Shown one piece after another: positions 4,879 to 44,094 of a stretch of DNA of 64,000 bases (within the stretch, counting starts at the first letter, position 1; each line of letters starts with the position of its first letter). This stretch comes from a virus. The stretch covers positions 9,250-73,249 of the IMG/VR virus record IMGVR_UViG_3300010297_000002. One strand, written 5' to 3'. The notes below the pieces were generated by a model. That model was not told the DNA's origin. It did no database searches and was given only the letters and a program-made list of their open reading frames with translations. The translations under genes were made by a program, and so were the position numbers.

Positions 4879-5017
4879 TCTTTACTCGCTGCAATTATCT
4901 TTTAATTTTCCTGGTTATAGTGAGCTGATTCTCTCTAAAAAATAGAAATTAAATCGGCTTACTATTATAATAGCAAAATTAAGCAAAAACTATTTATTTT
5001 GCTGGGAAGAATGAACT
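4879..5017. promoter_or_regulatory. AT-rich divergent intergenic region, likely containing promoters
   Basis: Non-coding gap between divergent genes. Contains TATAAT inside the palindrome CTATTATAATAG (~4962-4973). No clear -35 box. Confidence 0.35.
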
Positions 5018-28800: not shown

Positions 28801-31800
28801 CCGTATTCCAGGATTACTTCAAGGAGATCTACCAGAAAAATGTCGATAGGTTTGATAGGTCCTTTAATGTTAAAAAAGTTCTAAGTTTTGTAAAAGACTG
28901 GGAATCTCCCGATCAGAAAAAGAAAAGAAAGAAGCAAGAGGCTATCCTTCAACGTAATCTAGATATCCAAAAGATGATGGCTTTCGAGAAAATGCGTCAG
29001 ATCGCTCCCAGTTCTTATGCAGCTAAAGCGAGTGAGTATGAAAAGCTTATGAAAAAGCTTAAGGTTTCTTCATATGAAGAGCTTTTAGAAAAGTTTGATT
29101 CAGATTTCGTGAAAAACAAAGATAAAGCTGCGGTTAAAAAATTGAATGACTTCAAGACGATACGAGCTACTTTAGGCAGTGAGTGGGGCGAAGGCCTTAC
29201 TGGTAAATCACGTATAATGAATATCTCCAGAAAGATCGATAAGCATTACCGTGAGCTTATGGAAGAGTATGATAATCTTATGTTCTCCCTCATGGACGGG
29301 GAGGATCGGGGAGACTTACGTACCGTTAAGAAAGAGTTCGAGGAATTAAAAGCCCGTGTGGACTCTAAGAAGTTTCTCAAGGACACTCAGCTTTTTAAGA
29401 AAATTTATGAAAGCACAGGTCAATCTAAGAAGACTGACTTCGGTCTTAAGGACGCTTTAAAGTTCTCTGAGTACTTAAATTCCGGTTATCTCGGTAATCC
29501 GAAAGTTCTAGAAAAGTTCGGCTCATCTCTGAAGCCTGAAGATTCGAAGCAGTTTTTCAGGAGAGTGGGTCTTTTCTTTGCGACAATTAATAAGATCCAG
29601 GCGGACCCTAAGTTGAGGGACAAGCTTAGTTCAAAAATTAATAACAAGCTGAAGGGATTGGATTCCAGCCTCAATTCAAATCAAGATAAGGTAGATAGTC
29701 TGAGACTTTACTCAGAGTTTGATTTTGATTGGGATACTTATACAAAATCTCTTCGTGATTCCAAAAACCTCAAAGATCAGTACGATCGCTTTATAGAGAT
29801 GTTGAAGGACCCGAAGGCTATGGCTTCCTTTTTGGAAGTTTCCGAAGCTTCTAAAGAAAAGATCCATCAGTTCTTGTATGGTCTTATGGACCCTGAAAGT
29901 ACAAAAAATGAGATAGATGCGTATAACAGTCGTAAGGATAAGTTCGATGTTAATGTTTCTTCAGACGAAGTACAGGAGATCATGGACGCGGCTAAGTCGG
30001 GGAATCTGAGAGACAAGTTCAAGGATTTCTTCGATCTTCTTGATAGTGATCCTGAATTTAAGAGTTTTTTGTATAGATTGTCCGGCGGTTTGATGAAGGC
30101 CGCTTCTCAGTTATTGTCCAAGAAAGCTCTATTAGCCTCATTACAAGAAGACTTGATCGATGCTAAAGAATCAGGAGATGCCGATTCCGAGGCTAATGCT
30201 CAATCCCTGGTGGACAGTCAGAGAGATGAGGTCTCCAAGGCTAATGCACGTTTGGGGGCTATTAAAGAGAGAGTTTTGGCGTTGTTGAAGTCCAAGAGCG
30301 TAAAAGGTAATCATAAGGGCTTGTTGGCTTTCTTGATTTCGGATATGGATCAGATTCAAGAACAAGCTGCCGCTTATAAGGATCGATCCGATAAATTATC
30401 TTCCAATGCCAACCGGTTCAGAATGGATCTTGATAGGTACAAGATGGACTATGAAGAAGAGCGTTCTAAGTTTACTCGAGAGTTCGAGGACATTCCGGAG
30501 GATCAGGCCCGTACTGAGATTGAGTTGCAAGGAGATGCTGCGGCTCAAAAGGCTATGCGTGATGAGTTTAACCTTGCCCAGTCGGAGGTTATAAAGTTAG
30601 GCAACCAGAAGAAGAGTTTCCTGAACCAAGCCGGACCGCTCATGGATCTCTTGGAAGGCGGCGGGTCTAATGAAGCCATTAATAAGCACCGAGAAAAGTT
30701 TATGGATCAGTATAGAGGCCTTATTTTGAACTTGGATCGTTACGTTAAGGACCCGAAGACTAAGGCTGTTTTGGAGAAGCATCTCTATAACCCTGTGTTT
30801 GAGAGCTTCAATAAGGTGGCTCCTAAGGTTAAAAAGGTTCTTCAAATGTTCACTATTAAGAGCATGGAAAAGATCGCGGACTCCCTTCTATCAGATGACA
30901 AGGGCCTTAACGAGAAGGCTGCTGGGAACTTAAACTCTTTAGCGGATATTTTCGAAAAAGCTGATAAGTTTGGACCGATCTATGATCGAGAGCTTCAAAA
31001 GTACTTAGAGAATCCAGATCCTTCCAAGAATGGTGAGATAAAGAGTATTTTCGCTCTTCCAATGACTTTTGATCTAAGCACTCTACGCGATGTAAGAGGC
31101 TCGGATCTGATCCGCCAGAATTTTACAGCGAAGGCAGACAAGTTCGTAGCTAAATTGGCAGAAAAAGCAATACCTGTTTTTAATGCAAAACGCAATGAAG
31201 CCCTCGAGCAAGCCAAGTTCACACTGTTTAAGAACAATAAAGACATTCGTCCTTTCGACAAGTTGGAGAGCCTTCAGAAGGGATTAATTAATGAACTTTA
31301 CTCTTTGAATAAAAAGAAACGTGAGCATGAGGGCGAGTACTTGGAGCTCTACAATGCCCAGAAGTCTTCCGATGATCGAATAGAGGAAGGTGGATTTATG
31401 GGAGAGCTTCGAAAAAAGTTATCCGATATTTCATCTCAGATAGCTCGCAAGGAGGAAGAACTGTCTAAAGTTCGAGCGGAAATGAACCAGTACGAGGAAG
31501 CCGCAGATCTATCACTCAAAGGGGAGTTAGAGAACTTGGAGAGTGCTATAAGACCTTTCATCGGATCGACTTTTGGGAGATCCCTTTTTAAACTGGGTAA
31601 AGTTGGGGATCTCAAGAATCTTGACGAATTGGCTTCGTTTAAGTCCAAGGTTATTCCTAAGATTAACAATGCGATTAACGCCGGTAAGTGGGCTTCCGCG
31701 TATGCTCTGTATAAGGATAATCTGGATAACCTTAAGAATTATCCAGATAGTTATAAATCTTTGCGTAGAAAGTTTAAGAAGTACGCTAAAGACATCCAGC

Positions 31801-32540
31801 TTCGGTTTGATTTTCAGGTACAGGGTTCGGACTCTTTAGAAGGATTGCAAGAAGAACTTCAGACTCTTCTAGATAAGAGAATGAAGATTGAGAAGAAGCG
31901 AAGTGCTGCTATCAGGAAGTTGGAGTCTGAGCAGGCTCGCGACGCTAAACGAAGAGTGACTATGAACGAGAGGATTGAATCTCTTAATCAGAAGATCCAA
32001 GAATCTAAAAATCCAGATTCTCAGGTAAATCTTAACAGAAAGACCAGAATCCAGGAAATCGAGAACAGCTTAGCTCGTATGGACACGAGCAGTGATCGAG
32101 CTGTTGAGGAATTCGAGAAGATCGAGAAGTTCTTCGAACCCATCAATAATGGTGTCAAAAAACTTGTGGCAAAGATTAAAGAGCATAAGAAAAAGTTCGA
32201 CAATGGCCATAACTCTTTGAATGCTCTTTATGCCGAAATCCACGCTAATGAGGACCTTCTACGAACGTTCGCGGACGGTCCGACTCTGTTTAAGATGGGT
32301 TTAATCAATCGCCCTGGTCCAAGGGGTGGTAGGATTAAGAGTCCTACGGCTAAGGGACTAGAAGCACAGATTAAGCGTGAGAATAAAATAGAAAGATTAT
32401 TACGGCGGTTCAGTACCGCTATCGAGGAAGATATTTCGATTACTTCTTCTCTCAAAGATTTAGATTTATTGAAAAGATTATTAGTTAAGGAATTAACGAA
32501 CCTACTTGAGGATGAGAGACTATCGGATTTGTTAGTTTAA
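22821..32540 (+). CDS. Giant (3,239 aa) Lys/Glu/Asp-rich coiled-coil protein of unknown function, possibly an internal head/ejected protein; true start may be ATG 22857
   Basis: Uninterrupted 9.7-kb ORF with phage-like codon usage, many heptad segments and no recognisable catalytic motif. Confidence 0.75.
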   Translation: MFYGKYYIRKDLMKDLNTKNLRKTVIANVVDQVMGRDFSTFLKLKPDSQLEVLSKLVSEYGQDQRVLVKRAALSQIKSMIGVVAASREEDAADQGRFRERDVDVLNDVFSSEVRGLASRAILDQNKALAEQLDNKWGLGFFSELGTDTIKEIVAKFKDFWTKTNFNKQKKTSRVFDEKFETFREAVSDYKDLEDEFKEAAAKRAQMVKDLQTFTQDPEVKQEAYDTFDVYENKDLILKELNTFIDRLGRFGIKSLLDSKQFAAFVDFYQDDLPGIGAALFKASSIFDKNKDFLNDTKVKVYDEDRQEAVESSLSKILSENFNRDIYLLTLDENIRELEEYKSELKDEEPTERNLKELRKVEKSIESFRARQEDLEESRSWIVDGLENLDIYGMIKGDLQKFRKKATEEFLAKRKEIEDRERVDSDGNKLPRMAPPKLTSQDKREIEKATEKYRRKLLEKARQEATEKGLGFPEAVRKDLGVLRESVNHIQETLFDFKSYIEKSRNNAIDSLQEITRGEVDWDSVNAVEDYERIQNMLTRRESTIRKRLDFFGYSDYRIFIDRSTGYTAITLDGKTVPVRDLMKSITKSDLLDRYERGSNSPKESFNADYDSTLSDLVSEVGDVLDKQVEKEDLEAMKSKFTELISGQNEKGELDEDSSRRAFEFMTDLSSSLALFDKKVQLEEALELSNNGEKSGLDVNIKALAPAIFRKDKAPKNPMLPDLDETTYQAFMAKVFGINVDKPLEDLSDEEVQAMSFDPVLLKKISDSESFRDVSSMVTKAPGILKDLESAEESQIYREILSDVTKSIKAMDDVRLDTVGGSSGGEGSSPSDLVQDSIEILKSAIAGLPTQVFTTEGMEGSSVFQSLNQEALTFLAESVIDFPQFFNPETVRVFKDDAAAVKAARDALAANSKAIRDLEESKGNSKKSHKKLAEPEPTSSLEELRAKTPKLEKDLKDKKRVLEQKLKSINILDSLDLGAQGAGDASTVRVFSNMVEKLQKVVSNSLQMKVLEELAVLNRDKIEERAGQLLLIADAVKTQAQDSDIAAKWAKKLKTEKGDSVLAMVKEALEYFNPDSSKGDFAKYLQKSSVNNKGEASLPSVFALTSEGKAVAGSESISKLAVSALMSDVFDESMRDQDKAAKVYDEIGSWQVNAVDPEKAKLLKDFRSSLEDNFIKENSSDWRAHEAAKKEKFKAERKLAKSSAGLSELRRKLKKYADLLEKGPKDQETLEKKIKRLSNEKAMLKRIDKQKNSMVELEAQFKELHAKCGPLVEAERAHSTAKREYGELGSIPSVSLSNEDRKNIEERKAELRQIMEENFTKIKESKERGDCSIDEFNKVSSDYFSKKEKLEKLEAEYATREDALQRAESQLRKLKSSMGAAPGRLSKLRDAFDKDNPDSKLSKHYQLIDERNKAREDYASTYGVIAKGMADIDSKVEEKRQSLFKDRIAESGVLSSIQNDLNDESLIADKIDELGLSSILEPVLDKVPTDLLNVGDRFKFEEENTGVLNPHPDGGTILSPEASSILGDLVASKFTTSLPESSSVRRFFEDSMLSSSNLDKLDLGKYVRQTVSNTAVDFARKAQRDKGMSTSLVDRLSGNKRGETALIMELASGEDVEETLISQEQVTEGKDQAEGITGQDVLQDIENQDQDQEREDMLRKRTPDKKDESDLGDSRVEQMVNGFRVEMDRVLPILANETLFLDKGEKLKKDLEKFNMPQLQKAFGFTDQSQKNYEEILATKRALYDQLGRNGFVNLFKNGARLERVIGRGPFKEMSEEIFSSKEAYAKTSPVYILMKYFILPYVDIWMSGASDPQAVLKDKIMKEVESGILSLSMQKSFDEFMQDLSNNKSSQERAKAIFEEANEELLKSIINPKEMNNFVVGRVFNKTDFLAALSVFNMPYMKALVPKDGKLYFIPETDTREQFLSANPEKAKEMLDSLGSDPSGKFYANKSAPVIYELDFTKGIKLKETNPLFKAAISKVRANTVEDFMKALDPVFQDYFKEIYQKNVDRFDRSFNVKKVLSFVKDWESPDQKKKRKKQEAILQRNLDIQKMMAFEKMRQIAPSSYAAKASEYEKLMKKLKVSSYEELLEKFDSDFVKNKDKAAVKKLNDFKTIRATLGSEWGEGLTGKSRIMNISRKIDKHYRELMEEYDNLMFSLMDGEDRGDLRTVKKEFEELKARVDSKKFLKDTQLFKKIYESTGQSKKTDFGLKDALKFSEYLNSGYLGNPKVLEKFGSSLKPEDSKQFFRRVGLFFATINKIQADPKLRDKLSSKINNKLKGLDSSLNSNQDKVDSLRLYSEFDFDWDTYTKSLRDSKNLKDQYDRFIEMLKDPKAMASFLEVSEASKEKIHQFLYGLMDPESTKNEIDAYNSRKDKFDVNVSSDEVQEIMDAAKSGNLRDKFKDFFDLLDSDPEFKSFLYRLSGGLMKAASQLLSKKALLASLQEDLIDAKESGDADSEANAQSLVDSQRDEVSKANARLGAIKERVLALLKSKSVKGNHKGLLAFLISDMDQIQEQAAAYKDRSDKLSSNANRFRMDLDRYKMDYEEERSKFTREFEDIPEDQARTEIELQGDAAAQKAMRDEFNLAQSEVIKLGNQKKSFLNQAGPLMDLLEGGGSNEAINKHREKFMDQYRGLILNLDRYVKDPKTKAVLEKHLYNPVFESFNKVAPKVKKVLQMFTIKSMEKIADSLLSDDKGLNEKAAGNLNSLADIFEKADKFGPIYDRELQKYLENPDPSKNGEIKSIFALPMTFDLSTLRDVRGSDLIRQNFTAKADKFVAKLAEKAIPVFNAKRNEALEQAKFTLFKNNKDIRPFDKLESLQKGLINELYSLNKKKREHEGEYLELYNAQKSSDDRIEEGGFMGELRKKLSDISSQIARKEEELSKVRAEMNQYEEAADLSLKGELENLESAIRPFIGSTFGRSLFKLGKVGDLKNLDELASFKSKVIPKINNAINAGKWASAYALYKDNLDNLKNYPDSYKSLRRKFKKYAKDIQLRFDFQVQGSDSLEGLQEELQTLLDKRMKIEKKRSAAIRKLESEQARDAKRRVTMNERIESLNQKIQESKNPDSQVNLNRKTRIQEIENSLARMDTSSDRAVEEFEKIEKFFEPINNGVKKLVAKIKEHKKKFDNGHNSLNALYAEIHANEDLLRTFADGPTLFKMGLINRPGPRGGRIKSPTAKGLEAQIKRENKIERLLRRFSTAIEEDISITSSLKDLDLLKRLLVKELTNLLEDERLSDLLV

Positions 32541-35095: not shown

Positions 35096-36244
35096 ATGGA
35101 AACTGCCGAAAATACAAACAAGGTGCATTACCGCCCACGACCTTCTAAGACGGAAGGTTACTTTTCAGATGAGAACATTACGATTCTCTCAAACGCAATC
35201 ACATTCAATCAACCAGTCTTGCTTCAAGGTGAGTCGGGCACTGGTAAGAGTACGATTGTACGATGCCTCGCTCGTCAAAAGGGTGTCGAGGTTGTACGTA
35301 TCGATGGCTCGGGGAATTTGACCGAAGATGAGATCATCGGATGTCAGACTTTGGAGCCCGGTGAAGGCGGTATGCCTAAGCTGACTTGGAAAGACGGATT
35401 TCTCACGGACTGTGTACGTCATGGTAAGTGGTTGATCCTTGAGGAAATCAATGGTATCAAGCCGTCAGTACGCCTGTCATTACACTCCATTTTGGAGGAC
35501 ACAGGGTATTTGACTCTTCATACAGGTGATAAGGTCTTCAAACATCCTGATTTCCGATTCTTCGCCACGATGAATCCTCCTTCGATTCAGTACACTGGTA
35601 CTCAGCGAGATAACTTCGCTTTTAAGGATCGTTTCATTCCAATTCCGATTTCGTACCTGGATGCGGAGACTGAAACTGAACTTCTTCTGGAGTACTTTGG
35701 TTATGGTGAGGCTTACTACGCTCACGAAAAGATCAAGGAAGTTATCAGTACTCTGTGTGAATATGCTTCCAGTCAGAGAGAGCGTTATGCTAACGGCGAT
35801 GGAATCGAGTTCCCATTGACCACTCGTAAGTTGATTCAGTTGATTCAGCACGCCCATACCATGAACTTTGATCTGGTTTTCGATCAGTTCATGAGAGGTA
35901 TTTCTGACAAGGCTTCCGCCAAGGCGATGCATGATCAGTTGGTGACCATGATTTCCCCAGGGTCTACTGATGATGTGATCTTCAAGGACAGTGGGAAGAC
36001 TATCCCATCTACGGACCTTACAGCGGCAATTGAAGCTCTGGAGGACGGTGTTCATGAAACCAAGATCAGTGGTAGTTCTCCTACCGAGGCCATCATTAAC
36101 ATGGGCAAGGACGTTGACTACTTTAAGGTAGCTTACAACTTCTCTTACGAGGATGTTGTAGCTGACGAAGAACTCTCTGAGTTCGATGCCTTGTGTATCG
36201 AGTCCGCTCGTGATTTCATGATCGGTCGCGGATACTTAAAGTAA
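35096..36244 (+). CDS. MoxR/CobS/CbbQ-type AAA+ ATPase
   Basis: Walker A 'GESGTGKS', 'W.DG.LT..VR.G.WLILEEIN', 'HPDFRFFATMNP', 'AFKDRF', sensor 'TTRKL'; strong RBS AGGAG. Confidence 0.9.
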   Translation: METAENTNKVHYRPRPSKTEGYFSDENITILSNAITFNQPVLLQGESGTGKSTIVRCLARQKGVEVVRIDGSGNLTEDEIIGCQTLEPGEGGMPKLTWKDGFLTDCVRHGKWLILEEINGIKPSVRLSLHSILEDTGYLTLHTGDKVFKHPDFRFFATMNPPSIQYTGTQRDNFAFKDRFIPIPISYLDAETETELLLEYFGYGEAYYAHEKIKEVISTLCEYASSQRERYANGDGIEFPLTTRKLIQLIQHAHTMNFDLVFDQFMRGISDKASAKAMHDQLVTMISPGSTDDVIFKDSGKTIPSTDLTAAIEALEDGVHETKISGSSPTEAIINMGKDVDYFKVAYNFSYEDVVADEELSEFDALCIESARDFMIGRGYLK

Positions 36245-36276
36245 TAGTAGTACGGATTTTACCCTAGAGGTCTACA

Positions 36277-38106
36277 ATGTCTGAGATTATTCAAGAAAAT
36301 AAAAACACTAACGCCAAAAAAGCCATACCCAATTACTCGGTGGGTTTGTCCCGAGCTGATCAGCTCGCTAAGGCCATCGTAAACAAGTATGGGGTTAACG
36401 TGAAGGTTGGGGAGTCTCCCTGCGTAGATCTCAAAACCAATACCATCTACGTACCTCCGTTCGATCCGAATGATGATACTGATGTTTCAAACATGATTCA
36501 TTATATTGTTCATGAGGTTGGACACATCCTCTACTCGGATCAAACGGAGCTTCGTGGAATTAAGTTCAAGATCCTGAATGTGACCGAAGACCAAAGAATT
36601 AATGCCAAGCAAGAGTTGAAGTACGCTGGAATCAGTTTCAAGGTCATGGAGCAGAGAATCATGGATAAGATGGCTCGTTCCAATAAGAAGTCCCAGGAGA
36701 GGGTCGATGACTTTGTAAAGAAGCTAGAGGAGTCTGGTGTAGACCAGCTCTTTGGTATCGACAAAGAGAAGATCAAAGAGAACCAAGAGGCTATCGAGAA
36801 CTTGAACATCTTCATTTCAGGTCTTCTGATGAAATGTCATGGTGTTGCTAAGGCTAAGATTAAAAAGCACTTCAAGAGGCAGGATTGGTGGCAGGCCTAT
36901 GAGTCCATCGAGAGTCTTCTGGAGCATAAATGGGTGAAGATTCCGTCCTCAGCCCTGCTGGAGGATGATGCTGAGGCCATCTTCGATGCGATCAAGGATT
37001 TACTTCCTGAGAACTTCGAGAACGAAACTACGTCCGACGGGTCCCATGTGGTCTCCATGCCAGCGGATGGGTTCGGTCAAGGAGACCCAGCCGATCAATC
37101 TGATCAGGGGCAGCAAGGGGGCCAGGGCGGTGACCAACCTTTATCTCAGCAAGGGGGGACCCACTCAGAGAATGGTTTTTCTAATGAGGACTTGGAGAAT
37201 AAAGTAAAGAACTCCTCTTGCCGTAGTGACAATGTCACTGAGGAGGAGTCCTGGTCCGATGGTGACAAGAACAACAACCCCTCTTACGGGACAAATCTCA
37301 CTGATAGGGTTATGGAGAACACAACTTTCTACCGGTATAACCCGAACAGTCATGCAGGTTCTTGGTCTCAGCGAGATCGTTTAGATCTTCGGTCGAAGAT
37401 GTTCTACAACCGATTTCTAGATATGCTTCTAGTCGAAGACCAGATAGATCATCAGGACGGTTATTCTTCTGGGAAGTTGGCCAAGCCTCATAAGATCATG
37501 ACCAGTCCTCGAATCTTCTCTAAGATTCAAGATGGAGTTACTCATGAAAAGGTAGACGTAACGATTATTTGCGACTATTCCGGTTCCATGGGAGGTTACA
37601 CCCAGAATGTGGCTGAAGTAGGAGGAGGGATTGCTTTGGCTTTGTCGAAGCTGCAGATCCCTCATCAGATGTTCGGTTACGACTCATCATATGGGAGTGA
37701 CTGTAAGGTTTATGAGATAATTCCTTACAGCACTATATTTGATGCACGGATGTGCGACGCTCTGTTTAAGATGAATTCTGGTGGAGGAACCCCGACCGGA
37801 GAGGCCTTGATGTATTGCTTGGAAAAGCATGTGTTACCCAAGCCTGGGTTTCGTAAGTTGGTGTTTTTGATTACGGACGGATGTCCGAATAATCCTTCTT
37901 ACACGGAAGATATAGTTAAAATCTACCGAAGGTACAAGGACATCAAGTTATCCGGTATTGGAGTGGGTAGTAGTTGTGAGAACCTACTCCGACATATACC
38001 AGACGCAATGCTGATGAAGGACTTCGAGCAGTTCACTGTCGAAGGGCAGCAGAAGTTCTTTAATGACCTGGAGAAATTCATGGTTGGCGGTCGCACAATA
38101 ATTTAG
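36277..38106 (+). CDS. CobT/NorD-like VWA protein with N-terminal HEXXH metallopeptidase-like motif
   Basis: 'HEVGH' plus 'NVTEDQRI', acidic Gly/Gln linker, MIDAS 'DYSGSM', 'GGTPTG', 'ITDG.P'. Confidence 0.85.
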   Translation: MSEIIQENKNTNAKKAIPNYSVGLSRADQLAKAIVNKYGVNVKVGESPCVDLKTNTIYVPPFDPNDDTDVSNMIHYIVHEVGHILYSDQTELRGIKFKILNVTEDQRINAKQELKYAGISFKVMEQRIMDKMARSNKKSQERVDDFVKKLEESGVDQLFGIDKEKIKENQEAIENLNIFISGLLMKCHGVAKAKIKKHFKRQDWWQAYESIESLLEHKWVKIPSSALLEDDAEAIFDAIKDLLPENFENETTSDGSHVVSMPADGFGQGDPADQSDQGQQGGQGGDQPLSQQGGTHSENGFSNEDLENKVKNSSCRSDNVTEEESWSDGDKNNNPSYGTNLTDRVMENTTFYRYNPNSHAGSWSQRDRLDLRSKMFYNRFLDMLLVEDQIDHQDGYSSGKLAKPHKIMTSPRIFSKIQDGVTHEKVDVTIICDYSGSMGGYTQNVAEVGGGIALALSKLQIPHQMFGYDSSYGSDCKVYEIIPYSTIFDARMCDALFKMNSGGGTPTGEALMYCLEKHVLPKPGFRKLVFLITDGCPNNPSYTEDIVKIYRRYKDIKLSGIGVGSSCENLLRHIPDAMLMKDFEQFTVEGQQKFFNDLEKFMVGGRTII

Positions 38107-38108
38107 TA

Positions 38109-38137
38109 TTGACAATAGTTATTTGATAACTTAAGAT
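38109..38137 (+). promoter_or_regulatory. Sigma70-type promoter for the leader-tRNA transcript
   Basis: TTGACA (38109-38114), 17-nt spacer, TAAGAT (38132-38137). The expected start site falls at about 38144-38145, i.e. at or next to the A of the leader ATG. Confidence 0.85.
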
Positions 38138-38144
38138 TAAGTAT

Positions 38145-38225
38145 ATGACTTACAAGTTTTTGGTAAATAGTGATTCCAGTTCCTCTTCGGATTCAGATCC
38201 GAGGGGAGGGTTTCCTGTTCGCTAA
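38145..38225 (+). CDS. Putative leaderless attenuator leader peptide MTYKFLVNSDSSSSSDSDPRGGFPVR (26 aa, absent from the ORF track)
   Basis: ATG 38145 to TAA 38223-38225. Codons 9-18 are AGT GAT TCC AGT TCC TCT TCG GAT TCA GAT, all Ser or Asp, matching the downstream tRNA set. Confidence 0.8.
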   Translation: MTYKFLVNSDSSSSSDSDPRGGFPVR

Positions 38226-38258
38226 AAATTAGCAAGTCATTTGCAAAAACCCTCACCC
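38203..38258 (+). promoter_or_regulatory. Putative antiterminator helix
   Basis: GGGGAGGGTTT (38203-38213) can pair with AAACCCTC(A)CCC (38247-38258), 11 bp with one bulge, sequestering the 5' arm of the terminator. Confidence 0.65.
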
Positions 38259-38282
38259 GAAAAGGTGGGGGTTTTTTGTTTT
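38245..38282 (+). terminator. Intrinsic terminator (attenuator) just upstream of the first tRNA
   Basis: AAAAACCCTCACC-CGAAAA-GGTGGGGGTTTTT hairpin with a TTTTTTGTTTT tail. Confidence 0.85.
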
Positions 38283-38287
38283 CATTT

Positions 38288-38360
38288 GGTTCCGTAGCTC
38301 AATGGTTAGAGTACCGGCCTGTCACGTCGGGGGTTGCGAGTTCGAGTCTCGTCGGAACCG
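38288..38360 (+). tRNA. tRNA-Asp (GTC)
   Basis: Acceptor GGTTCCG/CGGAACC, D arm GCTC...GAGT, anticodon arm CCGGC-CTGTCAC-GTCGG, T loop TTCGAGT; no encoded CCA. Confidence 0.95.
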
Positions 38361-38365
38361 TATTT

Positions 38366-38448
38366 GGAAGAGATCCGGCTAGATGAGGAGCACGCCTGGA
38401 AAGCGTGTGCGTTGAAAAGCGTTGCGGGGGCGGGACCTGCCTCTTCCG
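38366..38448 (+). tRNA. tRNA-Ser (GGA) with atypical D and T loops
   Basis: Acceptor GGAAGAG/CTCTTCC, G73; anticodon arm CACGC-CTGGAAA-GCGTG; long variable arm GCGTT-GAAA-AGCGT; T stem GCGGG/CCTGC with loop GGCGGGA. Confidence 0.8.
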
Positions 38449-38455
38449 TATTTTT

Positions 38456-38538
38456 AGTAGGTTGGCCGAGTGGTAAGGTATACGGTTGCTAACCGTAAGT
38501 CTCCGTAAGGAGCGGTGGTTCGATCCCACCACCTACTG
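38456..38538 (+). tRNA. tRNA-Ser (GCT)
   Basis: Acceptor AGTAGGT/ACCTACT, G73; anticodon arm TACGG-TTGCTAA-CCGTA; variable arm CTCC-GTAA-GGAG; T loop TTCGATC. Confidence 0.9.
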
Positions 38539-38544
38539 CATTTT

Positions 38545-38630
38545 AGTAGATCGGCCGAGTGGTTGAAGGCAGCCGCCTCGAAAGCGGTAGAACTTGATCA
38601 GTTCCGTAGGTTCGAATCCTACATCTACTG
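38545..38630 (+). tRNA. tRNA-Ser (CGA)
   Basis: Acceptor AGTAGAT/ATCTACT, G73; anticodon arm GCCGC-CTCGAAA-GCGGT; variable arm GAACT...AGTTC; T loop TTCGAAT. Confidence 0.92.
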
Positions 38631-38635
38631 TATTT

Positions 38636-38722
38636 GGAAGCGTGGCAGAGTGCTCTATTGCGTCTGATTTGAGATCAGATGATCCTTACCGGGGTCCGTG
38701 GGTCGGAATCCCACCGCTTCCT
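38636..38722 (+). tRNA. tRNA-Ser (TGA) with variant elbow
   Basis: Acceptor GGAAGCG/CGCTTCC, T73; anticodon arm TCTGA-TTTGAGA-TCAGA; long variable arm; T stem GTGGG/CCCAC with loop TCGGAAT. Confidence 0.88.
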
Positions 38723-38785
38723 CTTTTATTTCTTTGATAATACGGCTTTTGGTAGAGAATCCTTCACTTCAACTCCAGGCAGGCA

Positions 38786-39298
38786 ATGAAAAATATCAAG
38801 ATCAAGGTCAAAGGCTCCAAATTTGAGATGGACCAATCTCTCTATGACTATATCAATGAGATCGAGATCAAGGAAATTAAGACATTAGAAGAGGAACTTG
38901 CAGTCGAGAAGTTCCGATCCTTGAGAGACCTTTATCAAGAGTATATCCGACCTGTTCAGCACGCTAAGAAAGCTTTTTCTATTTCGACTCCAGAAGTTCA
39001 GCTCGAAGTGGTTTTACAAGCCGACCCTCCTTCTCACAGAAACCTCATTGGGTTTCGTCGTGATGGTAAGGTAATTAAGGGTCAATTTTCGATCCCGGTT
39101 ATTGTTGAAGGGGCTCAGGAGCGGGAAGTAGTGCCGTTCGTGAACTGGTACATTAACAGTTTTAGTTGTTTAATAAGATACCTACTTTGTAAGCAAGCTG
39201 GGGTGCGGGTTATCCAGCCTTTAGAAGACCGAAAAAACTGGAATCTTGAGGCAGGCAAGTTAAACCTGGACTTAGATTTCGTTGTTGTTTTTGAGTAG
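38786..39298 (+). CDS. Hypothetical protein
   Basis: 170-aa ORF downstream of the tRNA cluster. Confidence 0.6.
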   Translation: MKNIKIKVKGSKFEMDQSLYDYINEIEIKEIKTLEEELAVEKFRSLRDLYQEYIRPVQHAKKAFSISTPEVQLEVVLQADPPSHRNLIGFRRDGKVIKGQFSIPVIVEGAQEREVVPFVNWYINSFSCLIRYLLCKQAGVRVIQPLEDRKNWNLEAGKLNLDLDFVVVFE

Positions 39299-39303
39299 GT
39301 CAA

Positions 39304-42300
39304 ATGGCTAAGTTTAAAACCGTAAAGAGTAGATTAGATTTTCTAGATCAATCCTTAATAGACTTGGATACCGCTCTTTCATTCGCCCCAGGCGGAGTGA
39401 TCGATGCCCAAGTAGCGAATGGTCTGCAGAGAGTAGATTACCGTCGATTCACTCGACTTCAGGATTTCCAACATTTGGTAACTGTAGGTCTTGGGAACAC
39501 CGATGCCCTTCTCTCGGATGTGACCATGGCCTCGAGGATTGCAATAGCTCCTGCGGAAAATGGCCAGATCTCAGAGAGCTCTCAGTTCTCTTCTGTGACA
39601 GTCACTCAACCTCCTACTGGAGGAAGTCCTCAGCAGAAAACAATGGAATATGATTTCTCTGCGTTCTCTTCTTTCTTCCCCGGATACACTTACACAGTAG
39701 TTCTAGAGTTGATCCCTCTTTCAGGACCGACTCCGGTTTCTTACGTTGCTCAACCTTCTGACACCACCCTGGTCGATATCCTTACGGGGCTAATTACAGA
39801 GCTCACAGTCAATGGTTACACTGGAAGATATGCTTTCTCAGTAGTCGGAGCCGGAGATACTCTACAAGTTGTTGGAAACACTCCAGGAGATGATTATCCT
39901 GTTGCATATGGTTTAGTTAACACTCCAGCTCCTAATACAATCTCTCCTACAGTTACCGTTCCAGCGATTACTGTGGGTAATACGGCTAAAATAATTGAAT
40001 ACAGTTTCGCGGCGATCTCTCTTCAGACTGGAGACTACTACACTCTCAGTTTAGAGAGTCCGGATATTCATGGACTTCAAGAGTTCACTTACAGAGTGAA
40101 GGACACAGATACAACCAAAGAGATCGTTTTAAACCACGTTAAGGATTCCGTACCTGCCGAGCTTGAGGAAAGATACATAATCACGGTAGTTGCTCCGGAT
40201 ATTCTTAGAATCGAGAGTGTGGAAGTCGGAGATGATTTCCCTACCCGTGATTTTGAAGTCATGACCGTAACAGAGACTCCAGCCGACTTCAATTCTATCG
40301 ACTTCTGGTGGTTCAATCCTGTTTCCAAGGAATGGGAAATTTCCCCAGATCCTGAAGTAAACAATAATGACATTTTTGAATTCACTCGTAATGTTCGCAC
40401 TTTCGATGAGTTGAAGAAAAACGATGGTGGGTTCTATTTCAAGTTTTGGATCAACACAGACAATTTACCAGGGGCACCCGGACCGGCCACTCACCAGATT
40501 AACTTCTTTGATTTTGCTTACGGAGTGGACAATCGCCCGGTGTTCTACTTTACCGAGATGTTGGATTCCCTGAACAGACCTCTTCCTACTGTCGAACCTA
40601 TGGAGATTAACAACTACGTAGTAGTTTCTTCAGGATCTAAGGATGGAAACAATGTTCTTTACCGTTTGATTATAGACCATGAAGAGTCAGGTAAGGATTG
40701 GAGACAGTCTCGAGTTTTCTGGAGAATCAATGGGGTAGCGGAGGAGTTTCAAGAAGTACCTGCTTACACCCCTAGAATGGATAAGCAGTGTACCGAAGCG
40801 GATTGGGTTCATAGTGTTCGAGCTTATCGCCTTCCACCAGAGATTTTCGAAGTAGTGGATACTCAGATTCACCTGGAGGCGAAGTTAGTCGATCAGGACG
40901 GGTTAGAGACCTTTGCTGATCAGATCTTGATTCTACCTAACCATCGTGTTCCTCAGATTGAGGAAGTCTTGGTTTCCGGCGTAGATACGTTTGACATACC
41001 CATCTCTGACTATATTGAGACCGGTGGTAATATTCGGATCACCAAAGCTTCTCCCACAGATTATCCCCAGGTAATTCTCGGAGAGACCCTTTCTGTAGAA
41101 CAAGGTCCCCTTACCGAACTTCGTCAAGTTAAGGAAGTCACAGATACCTATATCGATATTTTCGGGGGTGTTCCTCCGTTTAATTCCGGTAATCCGCTTA
41201 CTCTGAGGAAGACCGATGAGTTCGGATGGTATCCAGCAGAGGCTACTACCATTTCGTCAGGTTTCTTTGATTTCACAGACCTTAATCGAGGTCTCCTTGG
41301 CGATTCTTCCGTTTTAAACCTAATCGAAGTTAATGATGTTGTGAGGCTGGCTCAGCTTAATGCTGGCGGCACAGCCTGGACTACTGTTGATATCGAAGTT
41401 TGTAGAGTCGGCCACAGCACCGGACCTACTTCTTCAATTGAGTTTACTCAAGGACCATATAGTTTAAACGGCCAGGGGTTCTCTACCAATGATAGTCTTT
41501 CCGATTATTTCAACATGGCGAACCCTCTTACTCTGCTGAGGATGGAAAAGAATGAGCATTTTGAAGGAACATCTACTGTCGTTGAACATCACTATACAGA
41601 TACTATTAGACCGTTCAGGTATGTCAATGATATTGAACTATTCGACGGAGCAAGTATTTCTCGGGCTTATATTACTTCTCACGATGAATCAACGGTTTTG
41701 ATCGAGTTCACAACCTTAACTCTTCCTACCTTGGTGGAGGACATTAAAGCGTGGTCTTACGATCTATCAACTTTGGATCTAAACGATAAAGTTAGTGAGG
41801 TAGACTCGATCTATGAGAGATTCGTTCTGTTCATTGAGGATAGTACTGCTTTCGCTAATACCCAGAACTGCTCCAAGAGAATCTCATTGCCTCCTTACGA
41901 GGTAACTCTGGACATCAAGGAAGAGACCACTTTGAACCCTCTCGGGATCGCTAGAGTGTTCAACCCAAAGGCTCCCCAGCCTACAAATGCTATTCTTGAT
42001 CCAGATTATACTCAGTTTAACGGGTTTGATTCTCCTTATCTGAACGTGATGAATTCTGATTTCACAGCTTTTCAGGCTGGGTCTTCTTTCAACAGCGGTA
42101 AGTTCGAGAACTACCCACAGTTGAAGTACGGGTTGCAAAACCAAGAGAACTCTTTTCAGTACATCGTCGGATTTACCAAGATGAAGCTGGACCAGGGACA
42201 AAACTATATTACGGTTTGGACAGACGATCACTTTCCAAAGATTGTGCCGATCACTGTCGATACCGACGGTCAGGTAATTAGTATTGAGCTTACCGCAAAG

Positions 42301-44094
42301 ACGGCTCCTATTCTGGCTGAGATCGCTGCTATCCAGGCCACAGTGGGTAACATCGACACCAACGTTGAGTCTATCCTAACCGAAGTTACTGCGATCAATA
42401 CAGAACTGGTTACGGTAAATACTAATCTGGGATTGATTAATTCCGAGTTAGTTAATGTCAATACTCAGTTGGGGACGATCATTACTCAGGTTGGGGATAT
42501 TCAAACTGATGTGGGCGTTATTCAAGGGGACGTTAGTACTATCCTAAGTGAGGTTAATCAGATCCTGACAGAAACTCAGGGACTCTATCCTTACATTGAT
42601 GGTAAGACTACAGACATTATCAATGAAGTCCAGGCTACAGATTGCACTGCTGGAATAGCTGCGGTAGAAGTTAAGGTAGACCTTCTGAATGGTAAAGTAA
42701 ATTCACTGCAGTCTGATACCGCGAACATAATCGGAATAACCACAGACACTCGAGATTTAGCTCAGGATGCTACTTTTGGTTTTGAAGCGACTAAGAATCT
42801 CCTGGATCAGGTGAACACCACTACAGTAGCCTCTAGAGCAGTTTTAGATAATGCAAGTTACGGTAATGCCTCACTATCTACCAAGTTGGGAGCGATTAAG
42901 ATTGTAGTCGATGATACTCTCGACCAGTCCCAGACTAATAACGCCGGAATCGGCCAAGTTTTGACCGACACTACGAACATCACCTCCGACATTAATGGAG
43001 TGAGTGCTCAAATTGTGTCTATGCAGGCGGATGTGGACGCTATTCAAACGAATGTCCTTCAGTTGGCTGCTCAGAACAACACGATCGAGTCTGTTGTTCA
43101 GGACAACAATAACATCGGAACGAACACTAACAACGCTGTTGTTAGTATGCAACTTGATGTTACTTCGATTAAGACGGACACTTCCAATATTCTGGCGGAT
43201 GTTGCTGTTCTTGATTCTAAAGTCTCTACTACCCAGTCCGCAGTCAATTTGATCAAAGCGGATACAGGAAGTCTTCTTACCGATACTGCAAATATTCGAA
43301 CAGACACTACTCAATTACTTACAGATCTGTCTGCGGTGGATACCACCACAACCTCGACTAATAGTGGTGTAGGAACTTTATTAGGTAATGAACCTACTAA
43401 GATAACCCTGATATCTCAGATTGATACGAATGTGATGACTTCTCTTGCAGATACGGCTCAACTTAAGACAGACACAGCACAGATTTTGAGTACACAGTCT
43501 TCTACGGGTCCTCAGATTGATGGAATCGAGGCTGGGGTAAATCAACTTAATGTGAACCTGACCTCTGTAACGAGTACTGTCAATGATACAAACCTTAAGG
43601 TTAAGGACGCTAGTACCGGCCTTCAGGCCACCAAAGCGGTCATTGATCAGATCTTAGCTGACCTCACCACCCACCACACCACTGTGGATGGGAAACTGGA
43701 TAATATTCAGACCTCGATCGACAATCTTCCTTTGAATACAGAGATTGTTCAGATCCTGGATATTGTTTCCAGCCCGACTTACGGTAATGAGGCGATCCAG
43801 TTGGCTGTCGGAGCACTACTTTCCCAGGTCGATTTCCAAGCAGAGATCGACCAGTTAAAGGGAGCAGGTTTTGCTTCTGGTCCAGATTCATTGGCGGCTC
43901 AGTCAGCTAATCTTCAGACCTTGGTTTCAGGGTTGTACACTGTGGCGGACATCTGGAATGCTCCGGACAGAACTTTGACAGAGGCCGTCGACTTGATCAT
44001 CTCTCTTAGAGATCAATTGGATCGAATTGAGAATAATCAAGCAGATACACTAACTTACGATAAATTACATAACCCACCTGTGAAGGGTAGTTAA
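39304..44094 (+). CDS. Large virion structural protein with beta-rich N-terminal domains and a long trimeric-type coiled coil (whisker/fibre-like)
   Basis: T/V/D/N-rich composition. From about 42300 there are continuous V/I/L-x-x heptads ('IQTDVGVIQGDVSTILSEV', 'IKTDTSNILADV'). Confidence 0.7.
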   Translation: MAKFKTVKSRLDFLDQSLIDLDTALSFAPGGVIDAQVANGLQRVDYRRFTRLQDFQHLVTVGLGNTDALLSDVTMASRIAIAPAENGQISESSQFSSVTVTQPPTGGSPQQKTMEYDFSAFSSFFPGYTYTVVLELIPLSGPTPVSYVAQPSDTTLVDILTGLITELTVNGYTGRYAFSVVGAGDTLQVVGNTPGDDYPVAYGLVNTPAPNTISPTVTVPAITVGNTAKIIEYSFAAISLQTGDYYTLSLESPDIHGLQEFTYRVKDTDTTKEIVLNHVKDSVPAELEERYIITVVAPDILRIESVEVGDDFPTRDFEVMTVTETPADFNSIDFWWFNPVSKEWEISPDPEVNNNDIFEFTRNVRTFDELKKNDGGFYFKFWINTDNLPGAPGPATHQINFFDFAYGVDNRPVFYFTEMLDSLNRPLPTVEPMEINNYVVVSSGSKDGNNVLYRLIIDHEESGKDWRQSRVFWRINGVAEEFQEVPAYTPRMDKQCTEADWVHSVRAYRLPPEIFEVVDTQIHLEAKLVDQDGLETFADQILILPNHRVPQIEEVLVSGVDTFDIPISDYIETGGNIRITKASPTDYPQVILGETLSVEQGPLTELRQVKEVTDTYIDIFGGVPPFNSGNPLTLRKTDEFGWYPAEATTISSGFFDFTDLNRGLLGDSSVLNLIEVNDVVRLAQLNAGGTAWTTVDIEVCRVGHSTGPTSSIEFTQGPYSLNGQGFSTNDSLSDYFNMANPLTLLRMEKNEHFEGTSTVVEHHYTDTIRPFRYVNDIELFDGASISRAYITSHDESTVLIEFTTLTLPTLVEDIKAWSYDLSTLDLNDKVSEVDSIYERFVLFIEDSTAFANTQNCSKRISLPPYEVTLDIKEETTLNPLGIARVFNPKAPQPTNAILDPDYTQFNGFDSPYLNVMNSDFTAFQAGSSFNSGKFENYPQLKYGLQNQENSFQYIVGFTKMKLDQGQNYITVWTDDHFPKIVPITVDTDGQVISIELTAKTAPILAEIAAIQATVGNIDTNVESILTEVTAINTELVTVNTNLGLINSELVNVNTQLGTIITQVGDIQTDVGVIQGDVSTILSEVNQILTETQGLYPYIDGKTTDIINEVQATDCTAGIAAVEVKVDLLNGKVNSLQSDTANIIGITTDTRDLAQDATFGFEATKNLLDQVNTTTVASRAVLDNASYGNASLSTKLGAIKIVVDDTLDQSQTNNAGIGQVLTDTTNITSDINGVSAQIVSMQADVDAIQTNVLQLAAQNNTIESVVQDNNNIGTNTNNAVVSMQLDVTSIKTDTSNILADVAVLDSKVSTTQSAVNLIKADTGSLLTDTANIRTDTTQLLTDLSAVDTTTTSTNSGVGTLLGNEPTKITLISQIDTNVMTSLADTAQLKTDTAQILSTQSSTGPQIDGIEAGVNQLNVNLTSVTSTVNDTNLKVKDASTGLQATKAVIDQILADLTTHHTTVDGKLDNIQTSIDNLPLNTEIVQILDIVSSPTYGNEAIQLAVGALLSQVDFQAEIDQLKGAGFASGPDSLAAQSANLQTLVSGLYTVADIWNAPDRTLTEAVDLIISLRDQLDRIENNQADTLTYDKLHNPPVKGS

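What the first reader, a model, noticed from the sequence alone, without database searches (positions are those of the whole stretch)
38109..38722. Codon-matched translational attenuator controlling a phage tRNA cluster (tRNAs on demand)
Seen in sequence: promoter TTGACA-N17-TAAGAT; an ATG 7 nt after the -10 box with no SD (leaderless); a 26-codon ORF whose codons 9-18 are only Ser and Asp; a strong intrinsic terminator (38245-38282); then tRNA-Asp(GTC) and tRNA-Ser GGA, GCT, CGA and TGA. The codon run calls for every downstream tRNA: GAT x3 (GTC), TCC/TCT (GGA), AGT x2 (GCT), TCG (CGA), TCA (TGA). It contains no codon for any other amino acid. Alternative pairings match trp/his-type attenuators. 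The codon run 38181-38192 pairs with 38197-38207 (protector). 38203-38213 can instead pair with 38247-38258 (antiterminator), which would block the terminator. Established: in amino-acid operon attenuation, a ribosome stalled on hungry codons frees the antiterminator strand. Inference: the phage senses depletion or destruction of host Ser/Asp tRNAs (anticodon nucleases, tRNA-modifying toxins or starvation) and only then transcribes replacements, with negative feedback once they restore translation. I know this logic from biosynthetic and synthetase operons but not from phage tRNA arrays. Caveat: stalling at the last codons (TCA, GAT) might partly mask the antiterminator strand.
Basis: partly seen in the sequence, partly recalled or inferred. 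Interest (0 to 1): 0.95.

Follow-up and report, generated by a model that had tools for sequence, protein, structure and literature searches.

The report
Leader-peptide attenuator gating phage tRNAs
An uncultured phage places a tiny gene written only in serine and aspartate codons, plus a switchable transcription stop, directly in front of its serine and aspartate tRNA genes, so it probably makes these tRNAs only when ribosomes read those codons slowly.

Summary
The promoter-like site, the 26-codon ORF, the terminator, tRNA-Asp and three tRNA-Ser are real. The claimed tRNA-Ser(GGA) is a cloverleaf-like unit that ARAGORN and Rfam do not call.

The 10-codon Ser/Asp run is the longest in six frames of 64 kb; the next longest is 6. 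In folds of the nascent RNA:
- with no ribosome, a 96-nt rod forms and the terminator arm stays free;
- with the P-site at codons 2-15, a 12-pair antiterminator forms;
- with the P-site at codons 16-21, it does not.

None of 400 shuffles shows all three states.

I found no relatives, so conservation could not be tested. In 117 unrelated IMG/VR tRNA loci, two other contigs carry the same layout (five or six leaders). Their codon runs change with the tRNAs downstream. A second sample of 113 loci gave no such leader, so the layout is rare.

Eight literature searches found no description. This scan has already reported the same class on other phage DNA.

Nothing here is experimental. Translation would have to be leaderless, since there is no Shine-Dalgarno sequence. 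My best reading is a leader-peptide transcription attenuator, at about 0.6.

The parts
38109..38137 (+). Sigma-70-type promoter-like site, TTGACA-N17-TAAGAT
   Evidence: 10 of 12 matches. It lies in the 38-nt gap after the stop of the VWA/CobT-like gene. The start site is not mapped.
38145..38225 (+). Leader ORF of 26 codons plus TAA, MTYKFLVNSDSSSSSDSDPRGGFPVR. The ATG lies 7 nt after the -10 box and has no Shine-Dalgarno sequence.
   Evidence: GGAG lies upstream of 16 of 49 other genes in the window, but not here.
38169..38198 (+). Regulatory run of 10 codons, only Ser (7) and Asp (3): AGT GAT TCC AGT TCC TCT TCG GAT TCA GAT
   Evidence: It is the longest Ser/Asp run in six frames of the window; the next longest is 6.
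38145..38240 (+). 96-nt rod-like hairpin that holds the whole ORF and buries the ATG. This is the default 'protector' state.
   Evidence: minimum free energy -59.7 kcal/mol for 38144-38285, z = -7.7.
38180..38208 (+). Apical hairpin (regions 1:2). The 5' arm is part of the Ser/Asp run and the loop is UCAG.
   Evidence: duplex -19.1 kcal/mol.
38203..38216 (+). Region 2, the strand that can pair with the terminator's 5' arm to form the antiterminator
   Evidence: 12 pairs, -18.7 kcal/mol; 38 of 3000 shuffles and 5 of 1718 genomic windows pair as well.
38245..38282 (+). Intrinsic terminator. The 5' arm is 38245-38258 and the 3' arm plus U-run is 38265-38282. It ends 4 nt before tRNA-Asp.
   Evidence: It is one of about four strong intergenic + strand terminators in 64 kb.
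38287..38361 (+). tRNA-Asp (GTC)
   Evidence: (66.9 bits).
38366..38450 (+). tRNA-like unit with GGA in an anticodon-like loop. Its D and T arms are non-canonical and its function is doubtful.
   Evidence: Not called. Cloverleaf-like fold with z = -0.38. It sits in register with the array's gTATTT linkers.
38456..38539 (+). tRNA-Ser (GCT)
   Evidence: (56.8 bits).
38544..38631 (+). tRNA-Ser (CGA)
   Evidence: (52.5 bits).
38636..38723 (+). tRNA-Ser (TGA)
   Evidence: (47.1 bits).

Best explanation
This is a leader-peptide (ribosome-mediated) transcription attenuator that gates the phage's tRNA-Asp/tRNA-Ser cluster.

Proposed steps (all inferred unless marked shown):
1. Transcription starts at or next to the ATG at 38145, from the promoter-like site at 38109-38137. 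The 26-codon ORF is therefore read as a leaderless or nearly leaderless message.
2. If no ribosome loads, the leader folds into a 96-nt rod, the terminator forms and transcription stops 4 nt before tRNA-Asp.
3. If the ribosome runs through quickly, it covers 38203-16 (or the leader's hairpins re-form behind it), the terminator again forms and transcription stops.
4. If the ribosome waits for Ser-tRNA or Asp-tRNA at codons 9-16, the 5' arm of the apical hairpin is held in the ribosome. Strand 38203-38216 is freed and pairs with the terminator's 5' arm, 38245-38258. RNA polymerase then reads on into the tRNA genes.
5. The new tRNAs speed up decoding and close the loop. The result is negative feedback on the supply of exactly the tRNAs encoded downstream.

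Shown: the sequence features, the alternative pairings, their dependence on the modelled ribosome position, and the recurrence of the layout in other phages.

Inferred: the start site, translation, stalling, read-through, and the physiological trigger (high Ser/Asp codon demand, starvation, or host tRNA damage).
For: Codon run:
- A run of 10 of 10 Ser/Asp codons lies 90 nt upstream of a cluster that holds only Asp and Ser tRNAs. It is unique in six frames of 64 kb; the next longest run is 6.
- The ORF-aware binomial score is 7e-9. That is the best of 209 clusters scored and lies above all 1036 label permutations of that sample.
- Seven of the 10 codons are read by the four confirmed tRNAs under standard wobble.

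Structure:
- The three helices are nearly equal in energy: 1:2 at -19.1, 2:3 at -18.7 and 3:4 at -20.9 kcal/mol.
- In nascent-RNA folds, no ribosome gives 0 antiterminator pairs, the P-site at codons 2-15 gives 11-12 pairs, and the P-site at codons 16-21 gives 0.
- None of 400 dinucleotide shuffles shows all three states, and 5 of 400 show the first two.
- The antiterminator complementarity is matched by 38 of 3000 shuffles and by 5 of 1718 genomic windows.

Layout:
- The terminator ends 4 nt before tRNA-Asp, and no promoter-like site lies between 38138 and 38287. The tRNAs therefore need read-through.

Recurrence (of 209 clusters scored in 117 IMG/VR loci plus the window):
- Fifteen clusters have a terminator within 60 nt upstream. 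Five of those 15 carry a codon-matched ORF at p < 1e-4, against 1 of 194 without a terminator.
- L041: MKNNTQQQYQPQPYPMDSGGSIVV lies before Tyr-His-Pro-Gln tRNAs, with its ATG 10 nt after a TATAAT box.
- L049: three paralogous MRTI... leaders lie before Arg/Ser, Asn/Asn and Lys/His/Phe/Trp clusters.
- In all five leaders the modelled ribosome begins to break the antiterminator at or within a few codons of the end of the matched codons: inside the run in the window and L041, at its end in two L049 leaders, three codons past the last Asn codon in the third.

Demand:
- Ser (7.8%) and Asp (7.3%) are the 2nd and 5th most used residues in the phage's 49 ORFs. GAT occurs 49 times per 1000 codons.
Against: - The ATG has no Shine-Dalgarno sequence, while many genes of this phage have one. 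Translation therefore depends on an unmapped start site at or within a few nt of the ATG.
- The promoter-like site is not significant on its own: 6 sites were found against 8.0 expected in 6 kb.
- In full-length folds the terminator forms at every ribosome position. The switch therefore exists only kinetically, as in classical attenuators.
- Three of the 10 codons (TCC twice, TCT once) call for a GGA tRNA that no program recognises.
- I found no relative, so frame and codon conservation are untested.
- A second sample of 113 loci (160 clusters) gave no convincing case. One observed score lay above 4, against 1 in the antisense control and 11 of 786 permutations, and the permuted maximum was 6.6. 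The class is therefore rare and my binomial scores are anti-conservative for low-complexity ORFs.
- Three of the five supporting leaders come from one contig, and the count of five includes the window itself.
- There is no expression evidence.
Confidence: 0.6

Rival explanations
1. The leader is an untranslated structured RNA. A promoter drives a ~135-nt transcript, made of the 96-nt rod plus the terminator, that acts as a small RNA or as a constitutive leaky terminator. The ORF and its Ser/Asp run are incidental.
For: The whole ORF lies inside one long hairpin that starts exactly at the ATG. The fold z-score is -7.7. There is no Shine-Dalgarno sequence. The terminator forms in every full-length fold.
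Against: - This reading does not explain a 10-codon Ser/Asp run, unique in 64 kb, in front of Asp/Ser tRNAs.
- It does not explain why unrelated phages have ORFs whose runs follow their own downstream tRNAs.
- No Rfam family matches; the best hit is 19.4 bits at E = 0.44.
Confidence: 0.15
2. The terminator simply ends the upstream replication/CobS-CobT operon. The long hairpin is an RNase III-type processing site that separates the mRNA from the tRNA precursor. The promoter-like site and the ORF are chance.
For: - Nearly all genes lie on one strand with few terminators, and this is one of about four strong ones.
- Promoter-like sites are no more frequent than in shuffles.
- Long imperfect hairpins are RNase III substrates in phage early transcripts (recalled, T7 and T4).
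Against: - The usual order is stop, terminator, promoter. Here the promoter-like site precedes the hairpin and the terminator.
- The chance argument fails for the codon run, for the three-state switch with 0 of 400 shuffles, and for the recurrence elsewhere.
Confidence: 0.12
3. The ORF encodes a functional 26-residue Ser/Asp-rich peptide. Its position next to the Ser/Asp tRNAs reflects only shared timing of expression.
For: The ORF is intact and sits behind a promoter-like site. Leader peptides can act in trans, as peTrpL does (abstract of PMC7298713 as listed).
Against: - There is no ribosome-binding site.
- The other phages' peptides share no sequence with this one, only the match to their tRNAs.
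- The RNA alternatives are placed around the run.
- The peptide is too short for the homology tools, so I did not search it.
Confidence: 0.05

Closest known systems
Multivalent leader-peptide attenuators of enterobacterial amino-acid operons (thrL for Thr and Ile; ilvL for Ile, Leu and Val; also trpL, hisL, pheL, leuL). Recalled, together with the abstracts of PMC1183508 and PMC3082878 as listed.
   Same: Both have a short ORF with a run of regulatory codons for more than one amino acid, protector, antiterminator and terminator alternatives, and a ribosome position that decides termination.
   Different: - The regulated genes here are tRNA genes, not biosynthetic enzymes.
- The element is in a phage.
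- The ORF has no Shine-Dalgarno sequence and starts at the predicted transcript 5' end.
- The stop codon and region 2 lie inside the ORF-bearing rod.
- No Rfam leader family matches.
pheM leader of the E. coli pheST (phenylalanyl-tRNA synthetase) operon. Recalled; not seen in any call.
   Same: A leader-peptide attenuator controls a component of the decoding apparatus for the same amino acid that it senses.
   Different: It controls a synthetase, not tRNAs. It senses a single amino acid. It is a bacterial chromosomal operon.
T-box riboswitches (recalled)
   Same: They sense the state of a specific tRNA and switch a terminator or antiterminator upstream of genes for that amino acid's decoding or supply.
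   Different: A T-box binds the tRNA directly through a specifier codon and uses no ribosome. No T-box match was found.
Inducible tRNA array (trn operon) of Anabaena sp. PCC 7120 (PMC8421152; abstract read)
   Same: It is a supernumerary, horizontally spread tRNA gene set that is silent by default and induced when translation is impaired.
   Different: A word search of that paper's main text found no 'attenuat', 'leader' or 'terminator'. It is a bacterial array of 23 tRNAs, not sorted by amino acid.
Codon-matched leaders in front of phage tRNA clusters, reported by this scan on other DNA and found again by me in L041/G002 and L049/G001
   Same: The layout is the same: promoter, short ORF enriched in the amino acids of the downstream tRNAs, terminator abutting the first tRNA, and an antiterminator strand just after the run.
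   Different: - There is no sequence similarity between them.
- L049 uses a TAnnTTTG-type promoter motif and a ~45-nt 5' UTR.
- L049's leaders lack a protector state in my folds: the antiterminator forms without a ribosome.
- The window has a single cluster and a single leader.

Membership tests
Leader-peptide (ribosome-mediated) transcription attenuator | Short ORF in the leader between promoter and terminator | tested here: met
   26-codon ORF at 38145-38225.
Leader-peptide (ribosome-mediated) transcription attenuator | Run of regulatory codons cognate to the regulated product | tested here: met
   Ten of 10 codons are Ser or Asp, and the downstream tRNAs are Asp and Ser only. Seven of the 10 match a confirmed anticodon.
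Leader-peptide (ribosome-mediated) transcription attenuator | Intrinsic terminator between the ORF and the regulated genes | tested here: met
   38245-38282, -19.6 kcal/mol, ending 4 nt before tRNA-Asp.
Leader-peptide (ribosome-mediated) transcription attenuator | Mutually exclusive antiterminator that uses the terminator's 5' arm | tested here: met
   38203-38216 pairs with 38245-38258, 12 pairs, -18.7 to -19.0 kcal/mol. Matched by 38 of 3000 shuffles.
Leader-peptide (ribosome-mediated) transcription attenuator | A ribosome stalled on the run favours the antiterminator; a ribosome that has passed, or is absent, favours the terminator | tested here: met
   Shown in constrained folds only. None of 400 shuffles reproduces all three states. 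The last two codons of the run are not effective.
Leader-peptide (ribosome-mediated) transcription attenuator | The ORF is translated (ribosome-binding site or leaderless 5'-terminal AUG) | tested here: inconclusive
   There is no Shine-Dalgarno sequence. The ATG lies 7 nt after the -10 box, where a start site is expected (spacing rule recalled). The start site is not mapped.
Leader-peptide (ribosome-mediated) transcription attenuator | Read-through responds to the supply of charged cognate tRNA | not testable with these tools
   This needs reporter or in-vitro assays.
Leader-peptide (ribosome-mediated) transcription attenuator | Frame, run and alternative helices conserved or covarying in relatives | tested here: inconclusive
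   No relatives of this phage were found. Analogous leaders in other phages covary with their own tRNAs.
Rfam leader families (Trp, His, Thr, Leu and other leaders) and T-box | Match to the covariance model | tested here: not met
   No leader or T-box family matched at E up to 1 in 37500-39300.
Canonical tRNA (for the unit 38366-38450) | Recognised by ARAGORN or by Rfam RF00005; conserved D-loop and T-loop nucleotides | tested here: not met
   Not called. The T-loop is GGCGGGA.

The most novel reading that the evidence does not exclude
Phages of several unrelated lineages carry a so far unpublished control device. Their tRNA gene blocks sit behind leader peptides written in the codons that those tRNAs read. 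Each block is then transcribed only when decoding of those codons slows.

This would be a per-amino-acid tRNA supply homeostat. It would also switch on replacement tRNAs when a host defence cuts or disables the matching host tRNAs. The window's copy would be a compact form driven by leaderless translation, with a full protector/antiterminator/terminator switch for Ser and Asp.
Probability: 0.5. Interest if true: 0.9.

Novelty: new variant of a known kind. Interest (0 to 1): 0.8.

Why it matters
Phage tRNA genes are usually explained by codon-usage compensation. More recently they have been explained as a counter to tRNA-cleaving defences (PMC11555353 and PMC11464382, titles and abstracts as listed). 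How their expression is controlled is largely unknown.

A ribosome-read switch whose codons match the tRNAs behind it would mean that the phage measures decoding speed, codon family by codon family, and tops up only what is short. That would extend the classic attenuation logic from amino-acid synthesis to the tRNA pool itself.

It would also give a directly testable sensor of tRNA depletion, and a sequence rule for finding more such leaders: a short ORF, a matching run, and a terminator abutting a tRNA.

Tried and rejected
Relatives of this phage: none found.
- blastn of 37600-39200 against phages found only tRNA-sized matches in 27 records.
- tblastn of the VWA protein against phages found no match.
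- The search for related loci with the VWA, 170-aa and AAA proteins and with alignment A1 found nothing in viral contigs or metagenome contigs.
- A 24-nt tRNA-Asp pattern gave 0 hits in metagenome contigs and viral contigs.
- The search for homologous proteins gave one distant relative for each query, P0002 at 34% identity and P0004 at 35%.
- A 19-nt leader pattern hit one contig (L002). It is coding DNA without tRNAs, so a chance match.

Sequencing runs:
- DNA contigs of other samples carry the leader unchanged. X2 record 3 covers 38060-38273 and has two changes, at 38090 and 38121, both outside the ORF. X4 record 17 covers 38194-38590 and is identical. This gives no informative variation.
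- In the two RNA-library runs, no contig was laid on 38093-38302. One identical contig spans 38467-38690.
- Depth is low and DNA may be present in such libraries, so this says nothing about transcription.

Thermodynamic test: folding the full leader with a ribosome footprint always keeps the terminator. I rejected this as a test because attenuation is kinetic, and used nascent-RNA folds instead.

Replication: the second sample of 113 loci gave no convincing leader. I report this as a limit on prevalence.

Weak or rejected candidates: L114 'RRRRTR' is GC-rich, has no terminator, and was not pursued. The second G002 leader, before Trp-Ser-Cys, reaches only p of about 1e-3.

Literature: eight searches and word searches in three papers found no description of leader-peptide attenuation of tRNA genes. 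Subscription-only and older papers, for example on the phage T5 tRNA region or E. coli pheU/pheV, are not in the library. Supplementary files were not opened.

My recollection that early papers may have discussed short ORFs in the T5 tRNA region could not be checked.
Full report
**Where the window lies.** The window is bases 9250-73249 of a 73,249-bp IMG/VR virus record that CheckV rates 42% complete.
- Almost all of its 49 long ORFs lie on the + strand.
- The finding sits in the largest intergenic gap of the window, 38107-38785.
- Upstream is an AAA (CobS-like, phrog_249) and VWA (CobT-like) gene pair. Downstream are a 170-aa and a 1596-aa ORF of unknown function.
- The whole record holds only these four tRNA genes.

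**What is in the sequence.**
- TTGACA-N17-TAAGAT lies at 38109-38137.
- An ATG lies at 38145, 7 nt after the -10 box, with no Shine-Dalgarno sequence. GGAG lies upstream of 16 of the 49 other genes.
- The ORF 38145-38225 reads MTYKFLVNSDSSSSSDSDPRGGFPVR.
- A 13-pair terminator lies at 38245-38282 and ends 4 nt before tRNA-Asp.
- Then come tRNA-Asp(GTC), tRNA-Ser(GCT), tRNA-Ser(CGA) and tRNA-Ser(TGA).

**The fifth tRNA is not confirmed.** The claimed tRNA-Ser(GGA) at 38366-38450 is not called by ARAGORN, even at a 70% threshold. It is not matched by Rfam's tRNA model at E up to 10.
- It sits in register in the array and can fold as a class-II cloverleaf with the loop CUGGAAA.
- Its T-loop is GGCGGGA, and the fold is no better than shuffles, with z = -0.38.
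- Seven of the 10 run codons are therefore read by confirmed tRNAs: AGT twice, GAT three times, TCG once and TCA once.
- TCC (twice) and TCT (once) depend on this doubtful unit or on the host.

**Is the run more than chance?** Across all six frames of the 64 kb, Ser/Asp-only runs number 5 of length 5, 3 of length 6 and exactly one of length 10, which is this one.
- It ties for the longest two-residue run of any kind.
- Most of the run lies in the 5' arm and loop of a hairpin, so base pairing inside the run does not explain it.
- There is a loose six-base period (NNT TCN). Even given that, the six NNT codons are all Ser or Asp.

**Structure.** The leader 38145-38240 folds into one 96-nt rod that begins at the ATG. 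With the terminator included, the fold has z = -7.7, and 0 of 200 shuffles fold as well.
- The three competing helices are nearly equal in energy: 1:2 (run arm with 38197-38216) at -19.1, 2:3 (38203-38216 with 38245-38258) at -18.7, and 3:4 (the terminator) at -20.9 kcal/mol.
- With the full leader, the terminator wins at every ribosome position. That is expected for a kinetic switch.
- I therefore folded the nascent RNA ending just before the terminator's 3' arm, with a 28-nt footprint made unpairable.
- With no ribosome, the rod forms and the terminator arm is free.
- With the P-site at codons 2-15, 11-12 pairs of antiterminator form.
- With the P-site at codons 16-21, none form.
- Hungry A-site codons 9-16 would therefore antiterminate.
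- None of 400 dinucleotide shuffles of the leader shows all three states, and 5 of 400 show the first two.
- The antiterminator complementarity is matched by 38 of 3000 shuffles and by 5 of 1718 other 96-nt windows.

**Relatives.** I found none, so the direct test (conserved frame and codons) could not be done.
- DNA and protein searches of phage records, IMG/VR and JGI metagenomes gave nothing.
- The flanking proteins have one relative each, at 34-35% identity.
- Contigs from other samples carry the leader unchanged.

**Does the layout recur elsewhere?** I fetched 117 IMG/VR loci with a generic tRNA D-arm motif and called 581 tRNAs in 231 same-strand clusters.
- For each of 209 clusters I scored the best ATG-started ORF in the 300 nt upstream. 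The score measures enrichment in the amino acids of that cluster's tRNAs.
- The window came first, at 7e-9.
- Next was L041 at 3e-8. Its leader MKNNTQQQYQPQPYPMDSGGSIVV lies before Tyr-His-Pro-Gln tRNAs, behind TTGCAA-N16-TATAAT, with the ATG 10 nt after the -10 box.
- Three clusters of one contig, L049, followed. Their leaders share the start MRTI and differ in the middle:
  - ..VSSSRSSSG.. before Arg and Ser tRNAs (1e-6);
  - an Asn-rich leader before two Asn tRNAs (3.5e-5);
  - ..KHKHFSKSSKWF.. before Lys/His/Phe/Trp tRNAs (5.6e-5).
- Each has a terminator abutting the first tRNA.
- Controls: the antisense maximum was 3.6 on the -log10 scale. Label permutations exceeded 5 in 0.2% of 1036 cases, with a maximum of 5.1.
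- Fifteen of the 209 clusters have a terminator within 60 nt upstream. Five of those 15 carry a matched ORF, against 1 of 194 of the rest, Fisher p = 5e-6.
- That p-value overstates independence. The five include the window itself, and three come from one contig.
- In all five leaders the modelled ribosome begins to break the antiterminator at or within a few codons of the end of the matched codons: inside the run in the window and L041, at its end in two L049 leaders, three codons past the last Asn codon in the third.
- In L049 the antiterminator forms even without a ribosome, so that design has no protector state.
- The contig of L041 has a second leader with the same promoter, before Trp-Ser(GGA)-Cys tRNAs. 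It reads MNSFINISHSSFSISDWAVCVSADTKRSWF and is only weakly significant, at p of about 1e-3.

**A result against generality.** A second sample fetched with another motif gave no convincing case.
- It held 113 new loci and 160 scored clusters.
- One score lay above 4 and had no terminator. The antisense control also gave one, and permutations gave 11 of 786, with a maximum of 6.6.
- Only 4 clusters in this sample had a close terminator.
- The layout is therefore rare, in about 2 of roughly 230 sampled contigs besides the window.
- My binomial scores can be inflated by low-complexity ORFs.

**Best reading.** The locus is a leader-peptide transcription attenuator in front of the tRNA-Asp/Ser cluster. 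It gives negative feedback on the supply of exactly these tRNAs.
- The phage's own demand fits. Ser is 7.8% and Asp 7.3% of 20,302 codons, and GAT occurs 49 times per 1000.
- What triggers it in nature is not shown. It could be high demand, starvation, or host tRNA cleavage of the kind that phage tRNAs are known to counter (titles and abstracts listed).
- The weakest link is translation. There is no Shine-Dalgarno sequence, so the ORF must be read as a leaderless message. This fits the ATG position but rests on an unmapped start site.
- No terminator follows the tRNAs, so read-through may also feed the downstream genes.

**Rivals.** I considered three: an untranslated structured RNA or small RNA, an upstream-operon terminator with a processing hairpin, and a functional small peptide. 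None accounts for the match between run and tRNAs here and in the other contigs.

**Known or new?** Eight full-text searches found no paper that describes leader-peptide attenuation of tRNA genes.
- The nearest item is an inducible tRNA array in Anabaena. A word search of its main text found no 'attenuat', 'leader' or 'terminator'.
- Older subscription papers are outside the library.
- This scan's own notes already describe the same class on other phage DNA. None of them is related to this window.
- I had found the recurrence independently before reading those notes, and they are not evidence.
- The mechanism is a new variant of a known kind. The window adds a clean single-cluster case with a 10-of-10 run, a full three-state switch and a likely leaderless start.

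Noticed in passing
window 38366-38450: An 85-nt unit sits in register in the tRNA array, with the same gTATTT linkers and a 7-bp acceptor-like stem. It folds as a class-II cloverleaf with GGA in the anticodon position. It lacks the usual D-loop and T-loop nucleotides, and ARAGORN and Rfam do not call it.
   Followed up: partly
L049 (= G001:C1, minus strand), leaders about 140-185 nt upstream of the tRNA clusters ending at L049 3682, 2138 and 5064: Three paralogous leader ORFs start MRTI, and two of them end DLTTL. Each lies behind a TAnnTTTG-like motif (Bacteroidota-type promoter; name recalled) and before a terminator abutting the tRNAs. Their middle parts follow the amino acids of the tRNAs downstream.
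   Followed up: partly
L233 (= G002:C1) about 5990-6150, and L041 about 4900-5040: Two leaders in one contig share a nearly identical promoter, CTTGCAAACTG...TATAATTAAAA. One precedes Trp-Ser(GGA)-Cys tRNAs and the other Tyr-His-Pro-Gln tRNAs.
   Followed up: partly
G001:C1:7449-7576 (minus strand): An Rfam tRNA match spans 128 nt (43.6 bits) and ARAGORN did not list it. It may be a tRNA with an insertion or intron.
   Followed up: no
window 35096-38106: An AAA_5 ATPase (phrog_249, annotated 'porphyrin biosynthesis', CobS-like) and a 609-aa VWA protein (CobT-like) form a pair just upstream. Each has only one distant relative, at 34-35% identity, in the 5.8-billion-protein collection.
   Followed up: partly
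window 22821-32540 and 39304-44094: Two very large ORFs of 3239 aa and 1596 aa. The second has no informative family match. The first was not searched.
   Followed up: no
window 38090 and 38121: A contig from another marine sample (run X2) differs at two places, G>C at the end of the VWA gene and A>T in the promoter spacer. The leader ORF and the terminator are identical in it.
   Followed up: no
window 38456-38631: tRNA-Ser(GCT) and tRNA-Ser(CGA) begin with A and have an A1-U72 acceptor pair. ARAGORN places the GCT anticodon at position 33, which points to a short D-region.
   Followed up: no
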